Below are positions 316 through 10,381 of a DNA stretch of 50,235 nucleotides, piece after piece. The stretch is from Candidatus Cryosericum sp. (GTDB lineage Bacteria; Acidobacteriota; Polarisedimenticolia; Gp22-AA2). How positions within the stretch are numbered: the stretch's first letter is position 1; each line of letters starts with the position of its first letter. The notes under the pieces are model-generated. The model did no database searches. It worked only from the letters and a program-made list of their open reading frames with translations, and was not told the origin of the DNA. The translations under genes and the position numbers were made by a program. The stretch is taken from assembly GCA_035649235.1 (NCBI GenBank), contig DASRJX010000026.1:1-50235 (forward strand), in the 5' to 3' direction.

Positions 316-344
316 TTGTCCGGCGAGCCCTTTTCCCCTATACT
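316..344 (+). promoter_or_regulatory. Sigma70-type promoter TTGTCC-N17-TATACT
   Basis: -35 at 316-321, -10 at 339-344, 17-bp spacer. The ORF track's TTG start at 316 is this -35 box. Confidence 0.7.
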
Positions 345-354
345 TCGACCCCGC

Positions 355-2661
355 ATGCCGACAAGCAACCCCCAGCCTTTCAGTCACTTGGAGAACCATC
401 GACCGAGGTACTTGGCGGCCGCCGGCCGCTGGCTCTCGTGCATGGTGATCGTGGGGCTGGCCGTATTTGCGGGCGCCCGGGCCGCCACCCCCTACGACAA
501 GGTCGTCGTCCTCGGGTTCGACGGCGCCGACGCCGCGCTCGTGGAGCAGGCCATGGCCGCCGGGAGGCTCCCGAATCTGGCGAAGCTGAAAGCGCAGGGG
601 ATGTACGCGCCCCTCCGCAGCACCAACCCTCCCCAGACGCCGGTCTCCTGGGCCTCCTTCGCCACCGGGCTCAATCCGGGGCGGACGGAGATCTTCGATT
701 TCCTGAGGCGGACCGAAGGCACGTACCTGCCGGAGTTCGCCATGATCAAGGAAGGGAAGCGCCCGCTCTTCTTCGGGGCCAGAAACCCGGCGGCCTTCGG
801 CGGGATCGCGGCGGCATTCGGTCTCGTGCTGGGGGGTGGTCTCGGGCTCCTCCTCCGGCGGCGCCGGGGGGCGCTCTGGCTCATGCCCGTCGTGGTCGCC
901 GCGATCGCGGGTGCCGGCGCTGGCCTGCTGGTCTCCCGCTGGATGCCGCGCGAGGTTCCGGACGCGCACAACGCGCGCAAAGGCCTGCCGTTCTGGACGG
1001 CCGCAGCCGCGGCCGGAGTGCAGACGCGCGTCATCCACGTCCCGGACACGTTCCCGGCGGAAAGCCACGATCACCTGACGATGCTCTCGGGCCTGGGCGT
1101 GCCGGACATGCGCGGGCGCATCGGGTCTCCCTCGTTCTACACCTCCGATGCCTCGCTCAGCCTTTCCGACAACCAGTTCAGCGTCGAGATCATCAAGCTC
1201 AAGGCGCGGCGCGGGCGGATCGAGACGGCCGTCGTCGGGCCGCTTAACAAGCCGTTCTACGACTATGCCATCGACGAGGCGCTCAAGGGGATCGACGCGC
1301 CCCAGGCCAGGAAGGAGGCCCGCGCGGCCATCGAGAAGCGGCTCGCCGGGAACGGCGTGCGGCGCAGGCTCGACGTGCCGCTGGTCATCGACGCCCGGGA
1401 CGACTCCGTGATCCTCGAGATGGCCGGGCAGCGCCAGACCCTGACCCCGGGCCAGTGGAGTCCCTTCCTGGTCGTCCCGGTGCGCGTGAATCCCCTCGTC
1501 GACGCGGTCGCCGGGCTGAAGGGGATCGTGCGCTTCAAGCTGCTGGCGCTCGATCCGGAGCTGAAGCTCTACATGAGCCCGCTCAACTTCCATCCCGACT
1601 GCCAGCCGATCCCGTTCACCTCGCCGGTCTCCTACGCGCGCGATCTCGTCCGGGCCTTCGGCCTGTTCAAGACCCTGGGCTGGCCTATCGACACCTGGTC
1701 GCTGCCTTCCGGGCTGACCGACGAGTCGCATTTCCTCGAGGATCTCGAGATGACGGTCGCGACCCAGTTGGCGATGATGAAGAGCGCCCTGGAATCGGGC
1801 CAGGACCGGCTCTACCTGCAGGTCTTCGACTTCACCGATCGCGTCGGGCACATGCTCTGGCGACTGCACGACCCCGGTCATCCTCTGTTCGACGCGGTCC
1901 GGGCGCAGCGCTACGCGGGCGAGATCGACAAGGCCTACGATCGGATGGACGCCATCGTGGGCGAGGCGGTGCAGCGGATGGGCCCAAGGACCGCCCTGAT
2001 CGTCTGCTCTGATCACGGATTCGCCTCCTTCAGGCGCGGGGTCAACTACAACACCTGGCTCGTGAAGAACGGCTTCATGACCTTGCGCGAAGGGTCGTAC
2101 GGCGGCAAGACCCTCGAGGATCTCTTCGACCGCGGCGAGTTGGGGGAGTTCTTCAAGTTCGTGGACTGGTCGCGCACCAAGGCCTACGCCATGGGCCTGG
2201 GGAACATCTACATCAACCTGCTCGGGCGCGAGCCGAAGGGGAGCGTGGCGCCAGGGCGCGAGTACGACGAGGTTCGCGACGCGATCGCCCGGGGCCTCGA
2301 ATCCCTCGTCGATCCCGAGACCGGCGAGAAGCCGGTCCTGAAGGTCTACCGGCGCGAGGAGATCTATTCCGGGTTCGACCCGCGCGTCCTGCCCGATCTC
2401 CGGCCGGCCAACCGCGATCACTACCGCGTGGGGTGGCAGACGGCTCTCGGCGAGGTGCCGCCCAACATCTTCGAGGACAATCTGAAGCCCTGGAGCGGCG
2501 ATCACTGCTCCAACGATCCCTCCGTCGTCCCGGGAGTGCTGTTCTCGAACGTCCGACTCGACCCGGGCGCTCCCGGGATTGGCGACATCTACCCGACCAT
2601 CCTGGAGCTGCTTGGCGTGCCCGGCGTGCCGGGCATCGACGGCAGGAGCCTCGTGCGTTGA
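355..2661 (+). CDS. Alkaline phosphatase superfamily protein (nucleotide pyrophosphatase/phosphodiesterase-like), exported and membrane anchored
   Basis: Motifs VLGFDGAD, PPQTPVSWASFATG (Thr nucleophile), DFTDRVGH, CSDHGF, WSGDH; N-terminal signal peptide and an internal hydrophobic hairpin. Start ATG 355 (alternative 442). Confidence 0.85.
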   Translation: MPTSNPQPFSHLENHRPRYLAAAGRWLSCMVIVGLAVFAGARAATPYDKVVVLGFDGADAALVEQAMAAGRLPNLAKLKAQGMYAPLRSTNPPQTPVSWASFATGLNPGRTEIFDFLRRTEGTYLPEFAMIKEGKRPLFFGARNPAAFGGIAAAFGLVLGGGLGLLLRRRRGALWLMPVVVAAIAGAGAGLLVSRWMPREVPDAHNARKGLPFWTAAAAAGVQTRVIHVPDTFPAESHDHLTMLSGLGVPDMRGRIGSPSFYTSDASLSLSDNQFSVEIIKLKARRGRIETAVVGPLNKPFYDYAIDEALKGIDAPQARKEARAAIEKRLAGNGVRRRLDVPLVIDARDDSVILEMAGQRQTLTPGQWSPFLVVPVRVNPLVDAVAGLKGIVRFKLLALDPELKLYMSPLNFHPDCQPIPFTSPVSYARDLVRAFGLFKTLGWPIDTWSLPSGLTDESHFLEDLEMTVATQLAMMKSALESGQDRLYLQVFDFTDRVGHMLWRLHDPGHPLFDAVRAQRYAGEIDKAYDRMDAIVGEAVQRMGPRTALIVCSDHGFASFRRGVNYNTWLVKNGFMTLREGSYGGKTLEDLFDRGELGEFFKFVDWSRTKAYAMGLGNIYINLLGREPKGSVAPGREYDEVRDAIARGLESLVDPETGEKPVLKVYRREEIYSGFDPRVLPDLRPANRDHYRVGWQTALGEVPPNIFEDNLKPWSGDHCSNDPSVVPGVLFSNVRLDPGAPGIGDIYPTILELLGVPGVPGIDGRSLVR

Positions 2662-3944
2662 AGCGCCGCGCGGGACGGGTGCCAGGGGCGGCCGCAGCCG
2701 GGCTGTGGCTGACCGCCCTGCTCCTGACCGTCTCCGTCCCCCGTCCCTGCCGCGCGCAGGAACCGGGGGCGGGCCCGGCCCAGGAGGAGAGCCCTCCCGC
2801 CGCGGCTCCCACCGAAGGGCCCCGCGAGGACGAGACCCCGGAGGAGACGGCGCGCCTGGAGAAGATTCGGGGCGAGATCGACGCGCTCCGGCAGCGGCTT
2901 CTGCAGGGCGAATCCGACGCCGGGAGCCTGCTGGATCAGCTCGACTCGATCGACCTGACCCTGGCGGTCCTGGGGCGCGAGGCATCGCTCCTGGAGGCGG
3001 GAATCGCCTCCAAGCGCCGCGCCCAGGAGAGGGCGCGCTCCGCGGCCGCTGTGGCGGGGAGGCGGGCGACGCTGGCGGAAAGGGACCTGCGTCGCTGGCT
3101 GGTCGAGATGTACAAGGCCGGACCGTCGCGCGACCTGCGCCTGGTCCTGACGGCCTCGTCGCCGGGGGAGCTGGCAGGCGCCCAGCGCGCCGCCGAGGCC
3201 CTGGCGCGCGAGGAATCGCGGCGGGTCGGGGCGATCCTCGACGAGCGCGCGCGCCTCGATGCCGCCGTGCACGACCTGGAAGAGACGCAGGCCAGCCTGC
3301 AGGGACTCCTGGCGGACAAGGCGCGGCGTCAGGTCGACCTGACGACCGCCCGGAAGACCAAGAACCACCTTCTCTCCGACATCCGCGCCCGGCAGCAGAG
3401 CGGCGAGCAGGCTCTCATGGCGCTGGTGCAGGTGGAACGTGATCTGCAGACGCTGCTCCAGTCTCTCCCTGGCGTCCCAGGGGGGGGCGCCACGCCCTCC
3501 TACGGCCTGCCGCGCTTCCGTGGGCTGCTCAACTGGCCGGTCAGAGGAGAGGTCAGCATCCCCTTCGGGAACGTCCGCCACCCGCGCTTCGCCACCCAGG
3601 TGCCCCACCCGGGGCTGGAGATCGCCTCCCCCCCCGGCGAGCCGGTGCGGGCCCTGTTCGACGGCCGGGTCGCTTTCAGCGCCTGGTTCCGCGGCTACAG
3701 CCAGATGATTGTCATCGACCACGGTGACGAGTATCTTTCTATCTACGGCCAGCTCGGAGAGCGGCTGGTCGAGGCGGGCCAGGAGGTCCGCCGGGATCAG
3801 CCGATCGCCCGAACGGGCGAGCAGGGGACCTTCGGAGCGACGGGCCTTTATTTCGAAGTCCGCCACCACGGGAAAGCCGAGGACCCGGTGCCGTGGCTGA
3901 GGCGCAACGCGGGCCGTGCTGCGACCCGCCCGGAGACGCGATGA
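2658..3944 (+). CDS. envC: Murein hydrolase activator EnvC family (coiled coil plus degenerate M23/LytM domain)
   Basis: Signal peptide, long coiled coil, C-terminal LNWPVRG...HPGLEI...YLSIYGQL...LYFEVR...DP M23 fold with incomplete Zn ligands. TTG 2658 overlaps the upstream TGA, with AGGAG upstream. Precedes an S41 gene, as envC does elsewhere. Confidence 0.8.
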   Translation: MKRRAGRVPGAAAAGLWLTALLLTVSVPRPCRAQEPGAGPAQEESPPAAAPTEGPREDETPEETARLEKIRGEIDALRQRLLQGESDAGSLLDQLDSIDLTLAVLGREASLLEAGIASKRRAQERARSAAAVAGRRATLAERDLRRWLVEMYKAGPSRDLRLVLTASSPGELAGAQRAAEALAREESRRVGAILDERARLDAAVHDLEETQASLQGLLADKARRQVDLTTARKTKNHLLSDIRARQQSGEQALMALVQVERDLQTLLQSLPGVPGGGATPSYGLPRFRGLLNWPVRGEVSIPFGNVRHPRFATQVPHPGLEIASPPGEPVRALFDGRVAFSAWFRGYSQMIVIDHGDEYLSIYGQLGERLVEAGQEVRRDQPIARTGEQGTFGATGLYFEVRHHGKAEDPVPWLRRNAGRAATRPETR

Positions 3945-5116
3945 TGAAATTGTCCATCGAACGAAAGGTGCTCCTCCTGCTGTCGGCGGTGACGATCGCC
4001 CTGACCCTGGCCGGGGGCCTTCTGGGGAGCGCGGCGGCGACCGAAGGAACCTACGACTACCTGCGGGTGTTCAACGAGGCCCTGTACCTCGCCATGAACA
4101 ACTACGTCGAGCCGGTCCAGATCGAGGCACTCATGGAGGGCGCGTACCGCGGCATGCTCGAGTCGCTCGATCCGGGCAACGAGTACCTGACTCCGGCCGA
4201 ATACCAGAAGGCGACGCGCGGCGAGAACGCCGGTCCCGCCGAGGTCGGCGTGAACCTCTCGAAGCGCCACGGCTACGCGATAGTCGTCTCGGCCCTCCCC
4301 GGCAGCCCCGCGGCCTCCTCCGGCGTGAAGAGCGGCGACATCCTCCTCAGCATCGACGGCCGCACGACTCGCCTCATGGGCGCCTGGGAGGCCGCACAGG
4401 CCCTGCGGGGCAAATCCGGGTCGAAGGCGGTGCTGGTGCTGAACCCGGCCGACGGAGGGGATCGCAAGACATTGACCATCGAGCGCAAGGTCCTGCCTCC
4501 GCCCCAGCCCGTGGGGAACTTCGTCGCTCCCGAGGTCGGCGTCGTGCGCATCGCCGGCATCCGCGAGGGGGACGCCCGCCGTCTCGACCAGGCGATCGCT
4601 TCGCTCCGATCGCAGGGCATCAAGCGGTTGCTGCTCGACCTGCGTGGCTGTGCCTCCGAATCGCTGGCGGAGCCGATCGGCATGGCCAGCCTGTTCGTGA
4701 AGGACGGCGTAATCGTGAGCGTCACTGATCGCTTCGACGGCGACAAGGCCTACCGCGCCGATGGCCGCCGGCGCGCCTGGAGCGGACCACTCGCTCTCCT
4801 GGTCGACGGGGGGACCAGCCGGGGATGCGAAGCGCTCACGGCCGGCCTGCGCGATGCCGCGGGCGCCGCGGTGCTGGGGGAGCGCACCTGGGGGACGGGC
4901 ACGGTCGCTTCGATTCTGCCCCTGCGCAACGGCGACGGGGTGATCCTGGCCGTCGGCTCCATGCACTCTCCCACCGGCAAGGAGTGGAACGGCAAGGGGA
5001 TCGATCCCGATCTTGTCATCACCGCCGAGGGCTCGGCCTCGGGCGATTCCCAGCGTCAGAAGGCCATCGAGTACCTGCGCGGGGTTGCCAGGCCCGCGGA
5101 GCGCGAAGCCGCCTGA
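3941..5116 (+). CDS. S41/CtpA-family carboxy-terminal protease homolog with PDZ domain; catalytic Ser and Lys substituted
   Basis: AYRGMLESLDP, PDZ (VVSALPGSPA..SGVKSGD), LLDLRG, VDGGTSRGCE, GERTWGTG. ATG 3941 overlaps the envC stop. Confidence 0.85.
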   Translation: MMKLSIERKVLLLLSAVTIALTLAGGLLGSAAATEGTYDYLRVFNEALYLAMNNYVEPVQIEALMEGAYRGMLESLDPGNEYLTPAEYQKATRGENAGPAEVGVNLSKRHGYAIVVSALPGSPAASSGVKSGDILLSIDGRTTRLMGAWEAAQALRGKSGSKAVLVLNPADGGDRKTLTIERKVLPPPQPVGNFVAPEVGVVRIAGIREGDARRLDQAIASLRSQGIKRLLLDLRGCASESLAEPIGMASLFVKDGVIVSVTDRFDGDKAYRADGRRRAWSGPLALLVDGGTSRGCEALTAGLRDAAGAAVLGERTWGTGTVASILPLRNGDGVILAVGSMHSPTGKEWNGKGIDPDLVITAEGSASGDSQRQKAIEYLRGVARPAEREAA

Positions 5117-5203
5117 GGCAGTCGGGAAGGCGCCTCCCGCCCGGCAAAGACCCCAAACCGGCCCGGACCGATCCCTATTCCGCCGCGCCCCCGGCTTCTT
5201 CTC

Positions 5204-5232
5204 TGGACGCCCGCTGAGCGCGCCCCTATATT
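5204..5232 (+). promoter_or_regulatory. Candidate sigma70 promoter TGGACG-N17-TATATT for the kinase operon
   Basis: -35 at 5204-5209, -10 at 5227-5232, in the 162-bp intergenic gap. Confidence 0.5.
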
Positions 5233-5278
5233 GACTTCAAGTCCGCTGGAGTGCGGACGGGGAGCGAGGTGCGGGCGG

Positions 5279-6742
5279 ATGAGCCTGCCCAAGACCATCG
5301 GGCGCTACGAGGTGCTGGAGGAGATCGGACGCGGTTCGATGGGCGTCGTCTACAAGGCCCGCGATCCCCGCATCGGCCGCGTGGTGGCGCTCAAGTGCGT
5401 GTCCTTCAGCTTTCCCCTCGGCCCGGGGGAGGAGGAGGACTTCCTGCGGCGCTTCTACCATGAGGCGCAGATCGCGGGACGACTCAGCCACAACAACATC
5501 GTGACCATCTACGACGTCGGCGAGAAGGCGGCCGAGGGCGCCGCCTTCATCGCCATGGAGTACGTCACCGGGAACAACCTGCAGGAGCTGCTGGCGGGCG
5601 GCGGGCGTCTGCCGCTGAGCCAGATCGCCGATCTGACCTCGCAGGCGGCCGACGCCCTGGACTACGCGCACGCGAACGGCGTCGTGCACCGCGACATCAA
5701 GCCCGGCAACCTGGTGATGACGGCCTCCGGCCAACTGAAGATCCTCGACTTCGGAATCGCCCGGATGGCCGCCGCGGACGTCACGCGGCCGGGGAAGTTC
5801 CTCGGCACGCCGAACTACATGTCGCCGGAACAGGTGACCGGCGCGTCGGTGGACGGCAGGGCCGACCAGTTCGCGCTCGGCGTGACGCTGTTTCATCTCA
5901 TGACGGGCGAGCGGCCCTTCGCCGGCGAGAGCATCACCGCCATCACCTACCAGGTGGTGAACGTGACGCCCCCACCGCCCTCGCGCCTCAATCCCACGCT
6001 CCCCCCAGCGGTCGATCCGATCGTCGCCCGGGCGCTGGCGAAATCCCCCGCCGAGCGGTACCCGCTCTGCACCGACCTGGCGACCGATCTCAAGTCCGTC
6101 GTGAGTGCCTGGAGGGAGACGGCGAACCGGGCGGGCCCGCCGACGCTCGAATCCTCGCTTCCCTCCCGAGCCGTGATCGCGCCCTCGGTGGCCGAGGGCC
6201 AGCCCCCCGTCCCGCCGCGGCCCGCTCTGTCCCTAACGGGGCCCCGTGCGCTCGCGGGCTGGTCTTTGTTCCTGGTTTCTCTGGCCATCCTGGCTGCCGC
6301 GCCGTATCTCCTACGGGGAGCCGATCGGACTCCGAAGTCCGCGTCAGGGACCCTTCTGGGCTCGGCGCTCTCGACCGATCCCCCCGCGCCACGCGAGGTA
6401 ACTGCGGCGCCGCGCGAGGCATCGGCCCTGCTGGTTCTGAGCCTGCAGCACCGGCTCCGGTCCGGATCGGTGACGGCCCGCCTGGACGGCGTAACGGTGC
6501 TGGATGAATCAATCAAGGGATCGGGAGGCAAGGCGCGATGGGTCCGGGAGATCGCCACGACACCGGGCCGGCATCGGATCGAGGCGCGGCTTGTCGGCGA
6601 CGGAGGCGATGTGGATGACATCGAGGGGATCGACCTCGTTCTCTCGGCCGACCAGCGCGTCATCGTCGACCTGTCCGTGAACCCGCTCTCGCACCGGCTG
6701 AAGATGCGCGCCGACGGTCCGGCAGAAGGCGCCTCCCGATGA
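5279..6742 (+). CDS. Hanks-type Ser/Thr protein kinase with one TM helix and a C-terminal extracytoplasmic beta-rich domain
   Basis: GRGSMGVV, VALK, HRDIKPGN, DFG, GTPNYMSPE; Pro-rich linker; TM ALAGWSLFLVSLAILAAAPYLL. Start ATG 5279. Confidence 0.95.
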   Translation: MSLPKTIGRYEVLEEIGRGSMGVVYKARDPRIGRVVALKCVSFSFPLGPGEEEDFLRRFYHEAQIAGRLSHNNIVTIYDVGEKAAEGAAFIAMEYVTGNNLQELLAGGGRLPLSQIADLTSQAADALDYAHANGVVHRDIKPGNLVMTASGQLKILDFGIARMAAADVTRPGKFLGTPNYMSPEQVTGASVDGRADQFALGVTLFHLMTGERPFAGESITAITYQVVNVTPPPPSRLNPTLPPAVDPIVARALAKSPAERYPLCTDLATDLKSVVSAWRETANRAGPPTLESSLPSRAVIAPSVAEGQPPVPPRPALSLTGPRALAGWSLFLVSLAILAAAPYLLRGADRTPKSASGTLLGSALSTDPPAPREVTAAPREASALLVLSLQHRLRSGSVTARLDGVTVLDESIKGSGGKARWVREIATTPGRHRIEARLVGDGGDVDDIEGIDLVLSADQRVIVDLSVNPLSHRLKMRADGPAEGASR

Positions 6743-8706
6743 CGGCCCGACGTCATCCAACCCTCGGAGCGGCCTGGCTTCTGCCGATGCTGGTCGCGGT
6801 GACCTCTGCCTCCGCGGCCAACGGGGCGGCGGACCTCTCCCGCCGGGCGCAGGCCTATCAGCTCTATGCCCAGGCGCAGATGCTCCTGTTCGACCGCCAG
6901 GAGGAGTCGGCGGTGAAGCTCCTGGAGCAGGCGATCGAGCGCGATCCCGATCCGGCGCTCTTGCTCGAGACCGCCCGGGCCCACGACCTGCTCGGCCACT
7001 TCGAGCGCGCGATCGAGATCACCCGCAAGGCGCTCGCCCAGCGCCCCGGGTGGGCCGAAGCGTGGAGCCTCCTTGGCGACATCCATCTCGGCCAGGCGCG
7101 CGCCGGCATCGACGGCGATCTTCACATCGAGCGGGCGCTCGAGGCCTATCGAGAGGCGGTTCGATCCGATCCCGACGACCAGGCCACGGTGCGGGCCCTG
7201 GCGGAAGTCTGCTTCCAGATGGGGCGAATCCGGGAAGCGGAGGAGGTGCTCGATCGCCTGGCGTCGCGACGGCCGCTGCCTCCCTCGCTGAGCCTCCTCC
7301 AGTCGCGCATCCTCATCAAGACCGGCGAGGCCGAGAAAGCCGAGACCATCCTGACGAACCTCGTCTCCCGCTCGCCTCTCAGCATGGAGGCCGTCGACGC
7401 GCTGGCGGGGATCTATGAAACCGGCGGCCGCCTGGAGGAGGCGCTCGCGCTCTACGACCCGGCGCTGCGCGCCGACATCATCGACACCGGCCTGTTCGAT
7501 CGGGTGGGCCTGCTGCACCTCGAAGCCGGCCACGATCGCGAGGCCATCGACTTCCTGGAGCGGGCCCGCCGGCTGGACGCCGGCGACGCTCGCCGGCTGC
7601 TGCCGCTGGCGCAGGCCTATGAGGCCGTCGGCGAGTACCAGAAGGCGGCGGAGGCCTGCGAAGGCGCCCTGGCAGTCAACCCGACGAGCCTCGAGACCCT
7701 GTTCCACCACGCCCGGCTCCAGCGCAAGATGGGGAACGCCGAGGTCGCCCGGCGCGGCTACGACGAGATGATCCGGCTCGCCGAGTCCCGTGGGAAGCTG
7801 ACCGAGCGCGAGACGACGCTCGTGACGCTCGCGAGCGCGCAGGTCGGACTGCTGGCCATGGAGGTGCACGATTACGCCGCCTCCTCGTCCGCCTTCGCCC
7901 GCGCCGCCAAACTGGACAACGGCACCAGGCCCGAGTTGGTGTTCCTCCTGGCGCGGTCTCTTCTGCTTCAGGGGGACCTGGAGGGGGCCGATCGGACGGC
8001 CGCCGAGGCGACGGAGCGCTTCCCCGAGGCGCTCGAAATGTACGTACTGAGGGGCGAGATCCTCCTGGCCCGCGGCGACGAGAAGGCGGCCGGCGCCTAC
8101 TTCAAGGATCTGCTGAAGCGTCAGGACAGCTCGGTCGAGGCCTACGTGGGCGTCGGCGAGGCCCTGATGCGGAGCAAGCGGTTCGCCGACGCCGAAGCGA
8201 CCCTGTCGGACGGTCTCAAGGGCCACAAGGACGACGACCGGCTGCTGTTCGCGCACGGAGCCGCCCTCGAGCGCCTCGGCCGGATCGATCAGGCCCAGCA
8301 GGCACTGGCGCAGGCGGTGGCCGTGAACCCCGACAACGCCATGGCGCTCAACTATCTCGGCTATCTGCTCGCCGATCAGGGGGTCCGCCTGCGCGACTCC
8401 ATGTCGTACGTCGAGAGGGCCCTTGAGCTCGACCCGGAGAATCCTGCCTACCTCGACAGCCTCGGCTGGGTCCTCTTCAAGCTCGAGCGCTACGAGCCGG
8501 CCGAAGCGAAGTTGCGGGCCGCCTTGCGGTACGATGCGACCGACCCGGCGATCCGGGAGCACCTCGGAGATCTCCTGGTCGCGACGGGTCGGGACGAGGA
8601 GGCGTTGCGCGAGTGGGAGGCGGCGCTGAAGTGCGGGCACGAGGAGCCGGATCGGATCCGGGAGAAGATGGCCAAGGCGAAGGAACGGATCCGCTCCCCC
8701 CACTGA
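6739..8706 (+). CDS. Exported multi-TPR protein (positional equivalent of Pseudomonas LbcA)
   Basis: Signal peptide ending ASA, many TPR units, and C-terminal NAMALNYLGY.LAD...YLDSLGWV.FKL...HLGD typical of the TPR gene upstream of lolB/ispE. Confidence 0.85.
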   Translation: MTARRHPTLGAAWLLPMLVAVTSASAANGAADLSRRAQAYQLYAQAQMLLFDRQEESAVKLLEQAIERDPDPALLLETARAHDLLGHFERAIEITRKALAQRPGWAEAWSLLGDIHLGQARAGIDGDLHIERALEAYREAVRSDPDDQATVRALAEVCFQMGRIREAEEVLDRLASRRPLPPSLSLLQSRILIKTGEAEKAETILTNLVSRSPLSMEAVDALAGIYETGGRLEEALALYDPALRADIIDTGLFDRVGLLHLEAGHDREAIDFLERARRLDAGDARRLLPLAQAYEAVGEYQKAAEACEGALAVNPTSLETLFHHARLQRKMGNAEVARRGYDEMIRLAESRGKLTERETTLVTLASAQVGLLAMEVHDYAASSSAFARAAKLDNGTRPELVFLLARSLLLQGDLEGADRTAAEATERFPEALEMYVLRGEILLARGDEKAAGAYFKDLLKRQDSSVEAYVGVGEALMRSKRFADAEATLSDGLKGHKDDDRLLFAHGAALERLGRIDQAQQALAQAVAVNPDNAMALNYLGYLLADQGVRLRDSMSYVERALELDPENPAYLDSLGWVLFKLERYEPAEAKLRAALRYDATDPAIREHLGDLLVATGRDEEALREWEAALKCGHEEPDRIREKMAKAKERIRSPH

Positions 8707-9500
8707 GCCGCCCGTCTCCCGTTCTTCGCCCGACGGTCCTGCTGCTCCTCGTTGCCGCCTGCGCGGGCGGCCCCCGGCCGGTCACCCAGCCCGTCCCCGA
8801 GGGGGACGGCGTCCGGGTCCTGTTCCGCGTCGAATCGGACGGCCCGCGCGGACGCTCCCGGTTCCGCATGGCGGCGGCGCTGCGCCCCCCTTCGGAGGCC
8901 CGGCTGGAGTTCCTCGGTCCCGTCGGCGGCCCGCGCCTCGTCGTGGCCACGGACGGTGCGCAGGCGACGGCGATCCTGCCCGCGGAGCGGCGCTACGACC
9001 TCACCCGAGCGACCCCCGATGCGATGCACCACCTGCTCGGCCTGCCGCTCGACGGCGCGCGCCTGATCGCCCTGCTCTCGGGAGTTCCTCTCTGCCCGCT
9101 CCCCGCCGCCGCGGGGGCCCCGTCGACCCCCGCCACGGACCTTCGGTGGGACGCCGCGTGCGCGGCGGGGGACATCCGGTTCTCGGGCGTCGTCGGAGCC
9201 GCCGGCGAGCCCTTGCGGGAGGCCGTCCTGAGCGATGCGGTCAGCGGTGCGATCCTCGCCAAGGTGGAATACGGTGACCGGTTCGCTCTGCCGGGCGGGG
9301 GCTGGCCGCGCGACATCAGGATGACTCTGCCCTCGGCGGACGTGACGATCACCCTGACGGCGCTCGAGGCTCCTCTGGCGGCGCGCCTCCCCGACGACCT
9401 GTTCGCGCCCAGCATCCCGGAAAGCTTCGAACGAAGTGCTATCTTCGGCCGGCCGGAGGATCCGGCGCTCTTCGGAGCCGCCGATTCCGGGGGACAATGA
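8703..9500 (+). CDS. Lipoprotein, putative LolB/LolA-like fold
   Basis: Lipobox LLLLVAA-C; beta-rich body (ARLEFLGPVGGPRLVVATDG...WPRDIRMTLP...ITL); sits between the TPR gene and ispE, the lolB position. Start uncertain; CTG 8703 overlapping the upstream TGA is the best in-frame candidate. Confidence 0.55.
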   Translation: MSRPSPVLRPTVLLLLVAACAGGPRPVTQPVPEGDGVRVLFRVESDGPRGRSRFRMAAALRPPSEARLEFLGPVGGPRLVVATDGAQATAILPAERRYDLTRATPDAMHHLLGLPLDGARLIALLSGVPLCPLPAAAGAPSTPATDLRWDAACAAGDIRFSGVVGAAGEPLREAVLSDAVSGAILAKVEYGDRFALPGGGWPRDIRMTLPSADVTITLTALEAPLAARLPDDLFAPSIPESFERSAIFGRPEDPALFGAADSGGQ

Positions 9501-10381
9501 CCTCTCTCCGCCTGCGGGCCCCCGCCAAAATCAATCTCTTCCTCAAGGTCCTGGGACGCCGCCCGGACGGGTTCCACGAGATCGAGACCGTCGTGCAGAG
9601 CGTCACTCTCCACGATGGTCTCGAGCTCGCGATCGGGGGGGACGGGATCAGGCTCGAGGTCGACGACGTTCGCCTGCCGGCCGATCCCACGAACCTCGTC
9701 TGGCGTGCCGCGAGGGCCCTGCTGGGGGAGTGTCCTCCCGACCGCGGCCTCGCCATGCGGCTGCGGAAGCGGATCCCGATCGCGGCCGGCCTGGGCGGCG
9801 GCAGCAGCGACGCGGCGGCGGCCCTGAGAGGGGTCGACGCTCTATACGCCCTGGGGCTCCCGGCCGAGACTCTGGAGCGCCACGCCGCCGCCCTGGGATC
9901 GGACGTGCCGTACTTCCTTGTCGGGGGGGCGGCGCTCCTGAAGGGGAGGGGGACCGTGATCCACCCCCTGCCGGACCTGCCACGGGCCGATCTCGTCGTC
10001 GCCTCTTCCGTCGAGCCCCTTCCGACGCCCCTCGTTTACGCGCAGCTTCAAGAGCCATTGACACTTGCACCCCGAACGGCTAGCATACGCGACTCCGGGC
10101 GTATCCTCGCGGATCTTGAGTCGTTGGTGCGGTTAGGGAACGATCTCGAGCCGCACGCCGAGCGCTTGTGCGCCGAGATCGGTCCGATCCGCGAGGCGCT
10201 CCTCGCGGCGGGTGCGAGGGTGGCTGCCATGAGCGGTAGCGGATCGGCTGTCTTCGGCGTCTTCGCGAGCGCCGCGGCGGCGCGGGAGGCAGCGGGGACA
10301 CTGGAACGACAGGGGTTCCGGGCGCTGGCCTGCGCGACCCTCGACCGGGCCACGTACCAGCGGGACTGGATGGAGCACTGA
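9497..10381 (+). CDS. ispE: 4-diphosphocytidyl-2-C-methyl-D-erythritol kinase
   Basis: APAKINLFL, RIPIAAGLGGGSSDAAA, GSDVP, MSGSGSAVF. Confidence 0.97.
   Translation: MTSLRLRAPAKINLFLKVLGRRPDGFHEIETVVQSVTLHDGLELAIGGDGIRLEVDDVRLPADPTNLVWRAARALLGECPPDRGLAMRLRKRIPIAAGLGGGSSDAAAALRGVDALYALGLPAETLERHAAALGSDVPYFLVGGAALLKGRGTVIHPLPDLPRADLVVASSVEPLPTPLVYAQLQEPLTLAPRTASIRDSGRILADLESLVRLGNDLEPHAERLCAEIGPIREALLAAGARVAAMSGSGSAVFGVFASAAAAREAAGTLERQGFRALACATLDRATYQRDWMEH
10058..10086 (+). promoter_or_regulatory. Internal sigma70 promoter TTGACA-N17-TAGCAT inside ispE
   Basis: Perfect -35 at 10058-10063, -10 at 10081-10086, in a locally AT-richer stretch of the coding sequence. Confidence 0.75.

What the first reader, a model, noticed from the sequence alone, without database searches (positions are those of the whole stretch)
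3941..5116. CtpA/S41 pseudo-protease: both catalytic residues replaced
Seen: VDGGT-S-R-GCE aligns with the canonical VD..S-A-S*-ASE, placing Arg (4820-4822) at the nucleophile Ser. GERTWG-T-GTV aligns with GE.TFG-K*-G.V, placing Thr (4895-4897) at the catalytic Lys. The two positions are 25 residues apart, the Ser/Lys spacing of Prc/CtpA. DLR.NPGG has become DLRGCASE. The PDZ domain, N-terminal anchor and reading frame are intact, with no frameshift or premature stop. Inference: a retained PDZ-bearing scaffold or substrate trap in the usual ctpA position, next to EnvC, itself a pseudo-peptidase.
Basis: partly seen in the sequence, partly recalled or inferred. Interest (0 to 1): 0.65.

Follow-up and report, generated by a model that had tools for sequence, protein, structure and literature searches.

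The report
Conserved catalytically dead CtpA protease homolog
This gene encodes a periplasmic CtpA-type protease look-alike that has lost every catalytic residue yet is kept under purifying selection across the whole phylum Acidobacteriota, beside EnvC and an LbcA-like partner, so it most likely works as a non-cutting binding subunit in cell-wall control.

Summary
ORF 3941-5116 (391 aa) has the CtpA architecture: N-terminal anchor, helical domain, PDZ and S41 core. Its AlphaFold model matches solved CtpA structures (TM 0.77-0.85). Ungapped alignments to P. aeruginosa and H. pylori CtpA, including their active-site mutants, put R294 at the nucleophile Ser, T319 at the general-base Lys and A323 at the Gln. 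NPGG has become CASE.

It is not a decaying copy. dN/dS is 0.13 against a 93% identical ortholog, similar to the flanking genes.

The loss is ancient. In a sample spanning the phylum, 66 of 70 short CtpA-like copies lack the Ser and 67 of 70 lack the Lys. Most genomes also carry a longer paralog (520-545 aa) with canonical residues.

Across the class the gene order is envC, dead ctpA, LbcA-like TPR gene, an ORF at the lolB position, then ispE. This joins two P. aeruginosa operons into one cluster. The helix-1 residues that bind LbcA in P. aeruginosa, a C-terminal helix and a -[KR]xAA tail are all conserved.

Best reading: a natural counterpart of the engineered CtpA-S302A "trap", acting as a non-catalytic scaffold or regulator. 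That function is inferred, not shown. I found no published description in the library searched. Interest is moderate to high.

The parts
3941..5116 (+). ctpX: a CtpA/S41-family pseudoprotease gene (391 aa plus stop)
   Evidence: The ORF is open. Pfam finds CtpB_N-like, PDZ and Peptidase_S41. The best solved relatives are P. aeruginosa and H. pylori CtpA. The AF2 model has pLDDT 84 and TM 0.77-0.85 to CtpA structures.
3941..3944 (+). ATGA overlap between the envC stop (TGA 3942-3944) and the ctpX start (ATG 3941-3943), with GGAGA at 3932-3936 as a likely ribosome-binding site
   Evidence: Read directly from the sequence. It suggests translational coupling; that is an inference.
3965..4033 (+). 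N-terminal hydrophobic anchor or signal helix (residues 9-31)
   Evidence: The sequence is KVLLLLSAVTIALTLAGGLLGSA, and AF2 predicts a helix at 6-30. G25 is conserved in 94% of the clade. No dedicated signal-peptide predictor was run.
4052..4084 (+). Helix-1 residues Y38, L41, F44 and L48, which align with P. aeruginosa CtpA L43, L46, F49 and L53 (dimer and LbcA-binding interface)
   Evidence: Alignment; interface residues from PMC11021448. Y38, L41 and F44 are 86-90% conserved across 70 dead-clade proteins.
4175..4177 (+). G79, at the position of P. aeruginosa CtpA His-84, an auxiliary catalytic residue
   Evidence: 'ldpHsayl' aligns with 'ldpGneyl'. His is present in 0 of 70 dead-clade proteins and in 12 of 12 active paralogs. 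The role of His-84 is from PMC11021448.
4232..4474 (+). PDZ domain (about residues 98-178). The phi-G-phi carboxylate-binding loop is kept (V102-G103-V104); the hinge Phe is absent.
   Evidence: Pfam PDZ_6/PDZ. G103 is present in 68 of 70. The H. pylori F105 equivalent is present in 0 of 70. The H. pylori R162 equivalent (R156) is Arg or Lys in 38 of 70.
4535..5017 (+). S41 protease-fold core (residues 199-359), non-catalytic
   Evidence: Pfam PF03572, E 3.6e-28. The genome search places the match at 4535-5017. dN/dS for this half is 0.095.
4637..4660 (+). DLRGCASE, in place of the DLRxNPGG motif
   Evidence: In 12 of 12 active paralogs the motif is DLRxNPGG.
4820..4822 (+). R294 (CGG) at the nucleophile Ser position
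   Evidence: This column across the clade is G 46, R 5, S 4 and other residues 15, out of 70.
4895..4897 (+). T319 (ACG) at the general-base Lys position
   Evidence: This column is highly variable: Lys occurs in only 3 of 70, and at least eight other residue types are seen.
4907..4909 (+). A323 at the position of the third triad residue (Gln-331 in P. aeruginosa, Gln-329 in H. pylori)
   Evidence: Gln is kept in 45 of 70 dead-clade proteins but not in this one.
5048..5083 (+). Conserved C-terminal amphipathic helix (residues 370-381), at the position of the CtpA C-terminal dimerisation helix
   Evidence: AF2 helix 370-381 with block pLDDT 92. K374, A375, Y378 and L379 are nearly invariant. 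The C-dimer helix in CtpA is described in PMC12749690. That it still mediates oligomerisation here is an inference.
5093..5113 (+). Disordered C-terminal tail ending in a conserved -[KR]xAA-COOH (here ...PAEREAA)
   Evidence: pLDDT is below 50 for residues 385-391. 67 of 88 short-clade loci and 115 of 121 close homologs end in AA; 0 of 12 active long paralogs do.
2433..3944 (+). envC-like gene with coiled-coil N-terminal part and a degenerate LytM/M23 domain (about 3603-3887). The exact start codon was not determined.
   Evidence: Pfam M23. Best solved match is the E. coli EnvC LytM domain, E 3e-23, with 'LYFEVR' in place of the HxH motif. The NCBIfam EnvC model is the top hit. It lies immediately upstream of the ctpA-like gene across the class.
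5231..6742 (+). Hanks-type Ser/Thr kinase gene inserted between ctpX and the TPR gene. The likely true start is the ATG at 5279.
   Evidence: Pfam Pkinase. Outside family f1 it is seen at this position in only one locus, L057. The relative L074 starts at MSLPKTIGRYE.
6739..8706 (+). Exported TPR protein, LbcA-like
   Evidence: Its best solved match among natural, non-designed proteins is P. aeruginosa LbcA (PA4667), E 3e-25 over residues 440-631. It follows the dead ctpA gene directly in all the other families of the class sampled and in family f2.
8703..10381 (+). An ORF at the lolB position (no family match) followed by ispE (9497-10381)
   Evidence: Pfam and NCBIfam give no hit for the first ORF. 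ispE carries GHMP kinase domains. The order matches the lbcA three-gene operon of P. aeruginosa reported in PMC12569750; its lolB and ispE genes are named from my own knowledge. The order is conserved in relatives.

Best explanation
ORF 3941-5116 encodes a catalytically dead member of the CtpA (S41A) family that is nevertheless maintained by selection.

Shown here:
- It keeps the full CtpA fold and domain order.
- It has lost the nucleophile Ser (R294), the general-base Lys (T319), the Gln (A323), the auxiliary His (G79) and the NPGG loop.
- It is under purifying selection.
- It belongs to one clade of short CtpA-like proteins, found throughout Acidobacteriota, in which these residues are almost always missing.
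- Most related genomes carry a second, longer paralog with canonical residues.
- In its class it sits between envC and an LbcA-like TPR gene.

Inferred mechanism: the protein is anchored to, or exported across, the inner membrane. It oligomerises through its conserved N-terminal helices and C-terminal helix, and it binds the LbcA-like TPR protein through the conserved helix-1 hydrophobic residues. It would then act like the engineered P. aeruginosa LbcA-CtpA(S302A) complex, binding cell-wall hydrolases or their regulators without cutting them. The effect would be to sequester, position or hand over these proteins rather than degrade them. Its conserved -[KR]xAA tail is a likely PDZ ligand, used either for self-assembly or to dock onto the active paralog.
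For: Loss of the catalytic residues:
- Searches give ungapped alignments to wild-type and active-site-mutant CtpA structures.
- One search confirms the codons.
- S302A and K327A abolish CtpA activity experimentally (PMC11021448; PMC6050968).

Fold retained: AF2 pLDDT 84.3 and pTM 0.79. The top Foldseek matches are H. pylori and P. aeruginosa CtpA, with TM 0.77-0.85.

Selection:
- Omega is 0.131 for the gene and 0.095 for the S41 half, against 0.199 for envC and 0.145 for the kinase in the same genome pair.
- Omega is 0.06-0.22 in close family pairs.
- The dead paralog changes 1.6-2.2 times faster at the amino-acid level than the active paralog in all but the closest genome pair (1.16 there), but omega stays at 0.06-0.34.

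Lineage:
- All 120 close homolog clusters lack both Ser and Lys.
- So do all class-level orthologs, apart from two that keep the Ser.
- Of 40 genomes sampled from other families of the phylum, 36 lack both.
- The short clade is one group with 100% SH-aLRT support, separate from the active paralogs.
- Of the 150 best 50%-identity representatives worldwide, 65 lack both residues.

Context:
- The gene order envC, ctpX, LbcA-like TPR, an unassigned ORF, ispE holds across the class.
- yibQ follows ctpX in some relatives, as it does in P. aeruginosa envC-ctpA-PA5135.
- The TPR protein's best natural solved match is LbcA.

Interfaces: Y38, L41 and F44 are 86-90% conserved and align with the LbcA-contacting residues L43, L46 and F49.

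Precedent: CtpA-S302A still co-purifies with LbcA and traps MepM and other wall enzymes.
Against: - No binding or activity data exist for any member of this clade. The mechanism rests on synteny, conservation and analogy.
- The hinge Phe (H. pylori F105), which helps bind the substrate C-terminus, is absent in 70 of 70. The PDZ Arg (H. pylori R162) is kept in only about half. PDZ-mediated capture of substrates may therefore be altered or lost.
- The TPR protein matches LbcA only over its C-terminal repeats. Its N-terminal adaptor region could not be compared.
- envC adjacency holds in only about 17 of 40 genomes sampled from other families of the phylum.
- The active long paralog was not found in this genome. 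The assembly is 85.6% complete.
- Rooting of the dead and active clades relative to CtpAs of other phyla was not established.
Confidence: 0.6

Rival explanations
1. The protein is a regulatory partner of the active long CtpA paralog. It would either form mixed oligomers with it, in the manner of ClpR with ClpP, or insert its conserved -[KR]xAA tail into the active enzyme's PDZ domain to gate or target that protease. The LbcA-like protein would be secondary in this model.
For: - Dead and active paralogs co-occur in most genomes of the class and phylum.
- The -[KR]xAA tail follows a disordered linker and is present in 67 of 88 short-clade loci and 0 of 12 long paralogs.
- Binding of a C-terminal peptide to the PDZ domain is how CTPs are usually activated (PMC12749690; CtpB with a bound peptide, 4c2g).
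- The N- and C-terminal dimerisation helices are conserved.
Against: - The active paralog is never encoded next to the dead one. Its neighbours are LPS and TatC/GroEL genes.
- The two clades share only about 30% identity, which makes mixed oligomers less likely.
- The tail also occurs in 8 of 72 canonical Ser/Lys representatives and in L094, which keeps Ser and Lys. It therefore predates the loss of catalysis and may serve self-regulation.
- No interaction data exist.
Confidence: 0.2
2. The protein is still a hydrolase that uses non-canonical residues, for example the family-specific Cys237/Cys296 pair, T292 or S293 as nucleophile.
For: - C237 and C296 are invariant in the 86 aligned close homologs. 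They sit in the former oxyanion loop and two residues after the former nucleophile.
- T292 is 91% conserved across the clade.
- Reviews note that some apparent pseudoenzymes have relocated their catalytic residues (PMC10211241 abstract).
Against: - C296 is Ala in 47 of 70 clade members and C237 is present in only a third. Neither can be the clade's catalytic residue.
- S293 is Ala in 44 of 70.
- T292 corresponds to the structural Ser/Thr two residues before the nucleophile, which active enzymes also have ('GSASAS', 'GTASAAE').
- No conserved base remains: Lys is present in 3 of 70, His-84 in 0 of 70, and the oxyanion motif is lost.
- The Lys column holds many different residue types, the pattern expected of a site with no remaining function.
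Confidence: 0.06
3. The protein has a non-catalytic role unrelated to peptidoglycan hydrolase control, such as a periplasmic chaperone or an assembly factor for outer-membrane or lipoprotein biogenesis. This would fit the link to the ORF at the lolB position and to ispE.
For: - The cluster continues into an ORF at the lolB position and ispE.
- The link to envC holds in only about 40% of genomes sampled from other families of the phylum.
- Other PDZ proteases such as DegP can act as chaperones (my own knowledge).
Against: - The TPR-lolB-ispE arrangement is the P. aeruginosa lbcA operon, whose TPR product serves CtpA and wall-hydrolase control rather than lipoprotein sorting.
- envC, and yibQ in some relatives, flank the gene.
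- The ORF at the lolB position has no detectable family match.
Confidence: 0.1
4. The gene is a recently inactivated, decaying copy with no function.
For: The catalytic residues are gone, and the protein scores below the curated TIGR00225 cut-off (173.9 against 218.6 bits).
Against: - The frame is intact.
- Omega is 0.13, equal to or lower than the neighbouring genes.
- All 119 genomes of the class have a homolog, 179 of 201 in the phylum sample do, and in every sampled case the best match was the short copy.
- The AF2 model is confident.
- The start codon overlaps the envC stop.
Confidence: 0.02

Closest known systems
[quoted passage not shown]
   Same: - Best solved sequence match (E 9e-43) and same fold (TM up to 0.85).
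- Same domain order.
- Same genomic position after envC, with yibQ after it in some relatives.
- An LbcA-like TPR gene followed by an ORF at the lolB position and ispE.
- Conserved helix-1 hydrophobic residues that contact LbcA in P. aeruginosa.
   Different: - Ser302, Lys327, Gln331, His84 and NPGG are all replaced.
- The two P. aeruginosa operons are joined into one cluster here.
- In this family a Hanks kinase gene lies between the two parts.
- The protein ends in a conserved -[KR]xAA tail.
Engineered CtpA-S302A substrate trap (PMC6050968)
   Same: It is a CtpA without its nucleophile. It still binds LbcA and holds MepM and associated wall enzymes without degrading them. This is the behaviour proposed for the natural protein.
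   Different: - The engineered protein differs from the wild type by a single substitution. The natural protein has also lost the Lys, His, Gln, NPGG and hinge Phe.
- The natural protein has evolved for a very long time without catalysis. What it binds may have changed.
Degenerate LytM factors (EnvC, NlpD, DipM, ActS)
   Same: These are bacterial envelope pseudo-peptidases that keep a protease fold and regulate cell-wall hydrolases by binding them (abstracts). One of them, EnvC, is encoded immediately upstream, with overlapping stop and start codons.
   Different: They have an unrelated fold (M23 metallopeptidase rather than S41 serine peptidase). Whether the S41 pseudoenzyme activates, inhibits or merely tethers its targets is unknown.
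Dead protease paralogs that persist beside active ones (ClpR with ClpP; FtsHi with FtsH)
   Same: An inactive paralog is kept under selection alongside an active one in the same genome. The comparison with ClpR and FtsHi comes from my own knowledge.
   Different: ClpR and FtsHi assemble into mixed rings with, or derived from, the active form. There is no evidence for mixed assembly here, and the two paralogs share only about 30% identity.
IRBP / retinol-binding protein 3 (a non-peptidase homolog with the S41 fold)
   Same: It is the known example of an S41-type fold reused for binding rather than catalysis. It gives a weak direct match to the query (9frx, E 1.4e-6).
   Different: It is a vertebrate protein made of tandem modules with no PDZ domain, and it binds retinoids. 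It has no relation to bacterial envelope biology.

Membership tests
MEROPS S41A / C-terminal processing peptidase (CtpA, CtpB, Prc) | S41 protease-fold domain detectable by the family profile | tested here: met
   Pfam PF03572 scores 98.7 bits against a cut-off of 24. Foldseek TM is 0.77-0.85 to CtpA structures.
MEROPS S41A / C-terminal processing peptidase (CtpA, CtpB, Prc) | PDZ domain inserted between the N-terminal helical region and the protease core | tested here: met
   Pfam finds CtpB_N-like at 37-78, PDZ at 98-167 and S41 at 199-359.
MEROPS S41A / C-terminal processing peptidase (CtpA, CtpB, Prc) | Nucleophile Ser in G-[ST]-A-S-A-x-E | tested here: not met
   R294 aligns with Ser302 (P. 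aeruginosa) and Ser300 (H. pylori).
MEROPS S41A / C-terminal processing peptidase (CtpA, CtpB, Prc) | General-base Lys in T-[FW]-G-K-G, 25 residues after the Ser | tested here: not met
   T319 aligns with Lys327 (P. aeruginosa) and Lys325 (H. pylori).
MEROPS S41A / C-terminal processing peptidase (CtpA, CtpB, Prc) | DLRxNPGG motif | tested here: not met
   The motif here is DLRGCASE. Its assignment as the oxyanion loop comes from my own knowledge.
MEROPS S41A / C-terminal processing peptidase (CtpA, CtpB, Prc) | Score above the curated NCBIfam TIGR00225 'prc' cut-off | tested here: not met
   173.9 bits against a cut-off of 218.6.
MEROPS S41A / C-terminal processing peptidase (CtpA, CtpB, Prc) | Proteolytic activity on C-terminally recognised substrates | not testable with these tools
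   This needs a biochemical assay. The prediction is no activity, because S302A or K327A alone abolish activity in P. aeruginosa CtpA.
LbcA-CtpA type complex | ctpA encoded after envC (envC-ctpA-yibQ operon) | tested here: met
   envC lies immediately upstream with an ATGA overlap, and this holds across the class. yibQ follows ctpX in relatives such as L007 but is absent here.
LbcA-CtpA type complex | An LbcA-type TPR partner (encoded ahead of lolB-ispE in P. aeruginosa) | tested here: inconclusive
   The TPR protein's best natural solved match is LbcA, but only over its C-terminal repeats (E 3e-25). Its position ahead of ispE is conserved. The ORF at the lolB position has no family match. The N-terminal adaptor region could not be compared.
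LbcA-CtpA type complex | Hydrophobic helix-1 surface of CtpA that binds LbcA helix 1 | tested here: met
   Y38, L41, F44 and L48 align with L43, L46, F49 and L53. The first three are 86-90% conserved in the clade. Binding itself was not tested.
LbcA-CtpA type complex | Degradation of bound wall hydrolases | tested here: not met
   The catalytic residues are absent. The protein is therefore not filed as a proteolytic complex. A binding-only version remains possible.
Pseudoenzyme (conserved non-catalytic homolog of an enzyme) | Catalytic residues lost, fold kept and sequence under purifying selection | tested here: met

The most novel reading that the evidence does not exclude
An entire bacterial phylum turned its envC- and lbcA-linked CtpA into a non-catalytic subunit while a duplicated, longer CtpA kept the chemistry. 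In this reading the dead subunit, with the LbcA-like TPR protein, selects cell-wall hydrolases. It uses its conserved -[KR]xAA tail as a built-in PDZ ligand to dock onto and switch on the active paralog. That would be a two-protein adaptor-plus-protease relay not described for C-terminal processing proteases.
Probability: 0.15. Interest if true: 0.8.

Novelty: new variant of a known kind. Interest (0 to 1): 0.62.

Why it matters
C-terminal processing proteases are understood as enzymes that control cell-wall hydrolases by destroying them. The examples are LbcA-CtpA in Pseudomonas and NlpI-Prc in E. coli.

Here the copy that sits in the CtpA position has lost its chemistry across an abundant soil and sediment phylum. 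It has nevertheless kept its fold, its partner gene and its interaction surfaces over a very long period. That implies a binding-only function for the CtpA scaffold, one valuable enough to be preserved.

This gives a natural system for separating the adaptor or trap role of CtpA-LbcA complexes from their proteolytic role.

It also has a practical consequence. In the source names I saw, these proteins are labelled 'S41 family peptidase', 'carboxyl-terminal processing protease' or 'PDZ domain-containing protein'. As a functional statement the first two are probably wrong.

Tried and rejected
1. Active PDZ-type CtpA in the window's own genome. tblastn with two long active paralogs found only the dead gene and a weak match to a TPR-S41 fusion on contig C59. 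The assembly is 85.6% complete, so this absence is not evidence of loss.

2. The search for related loci with a phylum-wide alignment of dead forms (A2). It failed because no stretch was conserved enough. I therefore could not test whether the dead lineage extends beyond Acidobacteriota.

3. The listing of cluster members on ten representatives that had lost only Ser or only Lys, to get taxon names. None carried an organism name. An earlier batch named only Acidobacteriota: Bryobacterales and Thermoanaerobaculia.

4. The look-up of sequencing runs, to look for transcription evidence.

5. Literature. Five full-text searches for a natural catalytically dead bacterial CtpA or S41 protein found nothing relevant. 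Subscription journals are not covered, so this is weak evidence of novelty.

6. The conserved aromatic helix at the mature N-terminus of the TPR protein (AYxLYxxAQ). I considered it as an equivalent of LbcA helix 1. It reads as an ordinary first TPR repeat, so I did not use it as evidence.

7. The C237/C296 pair as a new active site or a disulfide. As a clade-wide feature it is rejected, because C296 is confined to one family. Whether the pair forms a disulfide could not be tested, because model coordinates are not returned.

8. Genes around the active paralog. They are a heptosyltransferase, an LPS kinase, TatC and GroEL, with no link to wall-hydrolase regulators.

Full report
**1. The observation**

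The window has 70% G+C. Names attached to close homologs place it in Acidobacteriota, probably the class Candidatus Polarisedimenticolia.

ORF 3941-5116 on the plus strand is open and encodes 391 residues. Pfam finds a CtpB_N-like helical region, a PDZ domain and a Peptidase_S41 domain (E 3.6e-28). The closest solved proteins are P. aeruginosa CtpA (E 9e-43) and H. pylori CtpA (E about 1e-39).

The Protein Data Bank holds both wild-type and active-site-mutant chains of these enzymes, so the catalytic columns can be read directly from the alignments.
- P. aeruginosa wild type reads 'nggsaSaae' and its S302A mutant reads 'nggsaAaae'. The query has 'dggtsRgce'.
- The H. pylori S300A/K325A/Q329A chain, compared with a chain that keeps those residues, marks R294, T319 and A323 in the query.
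- The alignment has no gaps between L287 and E297, or between G313 and G320. Both stretches are bounded by residues that are invariant in the clade.
- 'DLRNNPGG' aligns with 'DLRGCASE'.
- P. aeruginosa His-84, an auxiliary catalytic residue (PMC11021448), aligns with G79.

S302A and K327A each abolish CtpA activity in vivo, and S302A also abolishes it in vitro. The protein is therefore predicted to be inactive by the family's mechanism.

The upstream gene is EnvC-like with a degenerate LytM domain. Its TGA stop overlaps the ATG of the S41 gene, giving ATGA at 3941-3944, with GGAGA five bases upstream.

**2. The gene is not decaying**

A 93% identical ortholog on a metagenome contig (L074) allowed a comparison within the query's own recent lineage.
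- dN/dS is 0.131 for the whole gene.
- It is 0.095 for the S41 half and 0.184 for the N-terminal and PDZ half.
- In the same pair, envC gives 0.199 and the downstream kinase gives 0.145.
- The five closest pairs of family members give 0.06-0.22.

An AlphaFold2 model built from 86 homologs is confident: pLDDT 84.3, pTM 0.79, and above 90 through the PDZ domain and core. Its best structural matches are CtpA structures, with TM 0.77-0.85.

**3. How widespread the loss is**

All 120 close homolog clusters (55-93% identity) lack both the Ser and the Lys. The Ser column holds R, G, H, K or D, and the Lys column holds many different residues. The flanking glycines are invariant.

A search of 119 genomes of the same class found a homolog in every one, and a second match of about 30% identity in most. 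I fetched both kinds of locus.
- In every family sampled, the best match was a short copy (about 385-430 aa) that lacks the Lys. Nearly all lack the Ser as well; two keep it.
- The second copy (520-545 aa) has canonical DLRxNPGG, SASASE and GKG motifs in 12 of 12 cases.

I then sampled 40 genomes from other families across the phylum. Of the short copies, 36 lack both residues, one keeps both (L094), one keeps only the Ser and two keep only the Lys.

In a combined alignment of 70 short-clade proteins the counts are as follows.

| Position | Present in short clade |
|---|---|
| Nucleophile Ser | 4 of 70 (Gly in 46) |
| General-base Lys | 3 of 70 |
| His-84 equivalent | 0 of 70 |
| H. pylori Phe-105 equivalent | 0 of 70 |

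A maximum-likelihood tree separates the short clade from the active paralogs with 100% SH-aLRT support. L094 and its sister lie among the unresolved basal branches.

In all but the closest genome pair (where the ratio is 1.16), the dead paralog accumulates amino-acid changes 1.6-2.2 times faster than the active one. Its omega stays at 0.06-0.34. That is the pattern expected of a pseudoenzyme whose catalytic constraints have gone while its structural and binding constraints remain.

A profile search of 1.84 billion representative proteins returned 150 best hits. Of these, 65 lack both residues, 14 lack one and 72 are canonical. Representatives that carry organism names are all Acidobacteriota. 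I could not establish whether the dead lineage exists outside the phylum.

**4. Genomic context**

Across the class the gene order is:
- a 781-aa alkaline-phosphatase-superfamily protein;
- envC;
- the dead ctpA;
- an exported TPR protein;
- a conserved ORF with no family match;
- ispE.

In the window's own family a Hanks-type Ser/Thr kinase gene is inserted after the dead ctpA. In some members of that family a YibQ-type polysaccharide deacetylase gene precedes the kinase. This genome has no detectable yibQ.

P. aeruginosa has an envC-ctpA-PA5135(yibQ) operon and a separate three-gene operon headed by lbcA (PMC12569750); I name its other two genes, lolB and ispE, from my own knowledge.

The window's TPR protein has LbcA as its best solved match among natural proteins, at E 3e-25. 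The match covers only the C-terminal repeats. The acidobacterial cluster therefore joins the two Pseudomonas operons, with the dead protein at the junction.

The active long paralog lies elsewhere, among LPS, TatC and GroEL genes. It was not found in this genome's 85.6% complete assembly. The genome does encode other S41 proteins that keep a serine at the nucleophile position. These are a TPR-S41 fusion with intact Ser and Lys, two tricorn-like proteins and two of another S41 type.

**5. What has been kept**

Most of the best-conserved positions in the dead clade are structural and are shared with the active paralogs. Three features stand out.

First, Y38, L41 and F44 are 86-90% conserved. Together with L48 they align with L43, L46, F49 and L53 of P. 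aeruginosa CtpA helix 1. Those residues form the N-terminal dimer bundle and the hydrophobic surface into which LbcA helix 1 inserts.

Second, a C-terminal amphipathic helix (residues 370-381) is confidently modelled and nearly invariant within the family. It sits where CtpA has its C-terminal dimerisation helix.

Third, after a disordered and variable linker, the protein ends in -[KR]xAA.
- 67 of 88 short-clade loci end in AA.
- 115 of 121 close homologs end in AA.
- 47 of 62 dead representatives end in AA.
- 0 of 12 long paralogs and 8 of 72 canonical representatives end in AA.

A short apolar C-terminus is the kind of signal that CTP PDZ domains recognise. CtpB, for example, has been solved with a bound peptide ending in Val-Pro-Ala (4c2g). 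The tail also occurs in the few clade members that keep Ser and Lys, so it predates the loss of catalysis.

The PDZ carboxylate-binding loop keeps its central glycine (68 of 70) and its hydrophobic flanks. The hinge Phe is gone, and the PDZ Arg is kept in only about half.

**6. Mechanism**

Shown: the protein is a selectively maintained CtpA-fold protein without catalytic residues, and it is encoded between envC and an LbcA-like gene.

Inferred: it oligomerises like CtpA, binds the TPR protein through helix 1, and binds rather than degrades its clients.

The closest experimental analogue is the engineered CtpA-S302A. That protein still co-purifies with LbcA and traps MepM, other hydrolases and associated lytic transglycosylases (PMC6050968).

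The main rival mechanism is that the protein regulates or feeds the active paralog, through its C-terminal tail or through mixed assembly. Residual non-canonical catalysis is unlikely, because no candidate nucleophile or base is conserved across the clade. A pseudogene reading is excluded.

**7. Comparison with what is known, and novelty**

The protein is an evolutionary member of the S41A family but fails the family's catalytic criteria. It also falls below the curated TIGR00225 cut-off. Source databases label such proteins 'S41 family peptidase', 'carboxyl-terminal processing protease' or 'PDZ domain-containing protein'.

Dead homologs of proteases are a familiar phenomenon. Examples are the degenerate LytM factors next door, ClpR, FtsHi, and IRBP within the S41 fold. 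The kind is therefore known.

What appears to be new is a phylum-wide dead version of the envC/lbcA-linked CtpA with conserved partner synteny. Five full-text searches found no description of it. The library does not cover subscription journals.

I rate it a new variant of a known kind, with moderate to high interest. It is a clean and testable case, and it bears on how CtpA-adaptor complexes work.

**8. Limits**

- Residue equivalences come from sequence alignments with strong anchors and from fold-level matches, not from a residue-level structural superposition.
- The tree has no outgroup from another phylum.
- The dN/dS values are pairwise Nei-Gojobori estimates.

Noticed in passing
window 4649-4651 (C237) and 4826-4828 (C296): Two cysteines flank the former active site, one in the ex-oxyanion loop (DLRGC) and one two residues after the ex-nucleophile (GCE). 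Both are invariant in the 86 aligned close homologs of this family. C296 is essentially absent outside the family, while C237 occurs alone in about a third of the wider clade. They may form a periplasmic disulfide or a redox or metal site.
   Followed up: partly
window 5117-5230; L007:3651-4511: Some relatives in the same family carry a YibQ/SddA-type polysaccharide deacetylase gene (Pfam PF04748, E 4e-73) between the dead ctpA and the kinase, as in P. aeruginosa envC-ctpA-PA5135. The window and its 93% identical relative lack it here. No PF04748 match exists anywhere in this 85.6% complete assembly.
   Followed up: partly
window 5231-6742: A Hanks-type Ser/Thr kinase with a C-terminal extracytoplasmic region lies between the dead ctpA and the LbcA-like TPR gene. 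Outside this family it is seen at this position in only one locus (L057); in the other families of the class sampled the TPR gene follows ctpA directly. This suggests the cluster acquired a signalling input within this lineage.
   Followed up: partly
window 316-2661: A 781-aa protein of the alkaline-phosphatase superfamily (type I phosphodiesterase / nucleotide pyrophosphatase) lies upstream of envC. It is found there in most loci sampled across the class and in some other families of the phylum. That is the position gpmM/gpmI (also alkaline-phosphatase superfamily) occupies upstream of envC in E. coli; the E. coli arrangement is from my own knowledge.
   Followed up: no
own genome contig C59:30648-31118 (L001): An S41 domain with intact DLRGNPGG, TASAAE and FGKG motifs is fused to a long N-terminal TPR region, with no PDZ domain seen in the sequence. 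In effect the adaptor and the protease sit in one polypeptide. It is the strongest Pfam S41 hit in the genome.
   Followed up: no
window 8703-9497: The ORF between the TPR gene and ispE sits where lolB sits in P. aeruginosa and is conserved in relatives. It has no Pfam or NCBIfam match, so its identification as LolB rests on position alone.
   Followed up: partly
L008 (DASRAN010000040.1): A record titled 'Patescibacteria group bacterium' carries a 67% identical ortholog in the same envC-ctpX-yibQ-kinase-TPR-ispE arrangement as the Acidobacteriota genomes. The taxonomic label of that metagenome-assembled genome, or of that contig, is probably wrong.
   Followed up: no
L094 (G195:C34) and L113 (G155:C104): One family in the phylum (f48) has short-clade members that keep the Lys. 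L094 keeps both Ser and Lys, with GNAGG in place of NPGG, but lacks the His-84 and Phe-105 equivalents. It may be a surviving active or half-active intermediate, useful for working out the order in which the residues were lost.
   Followed up: partly
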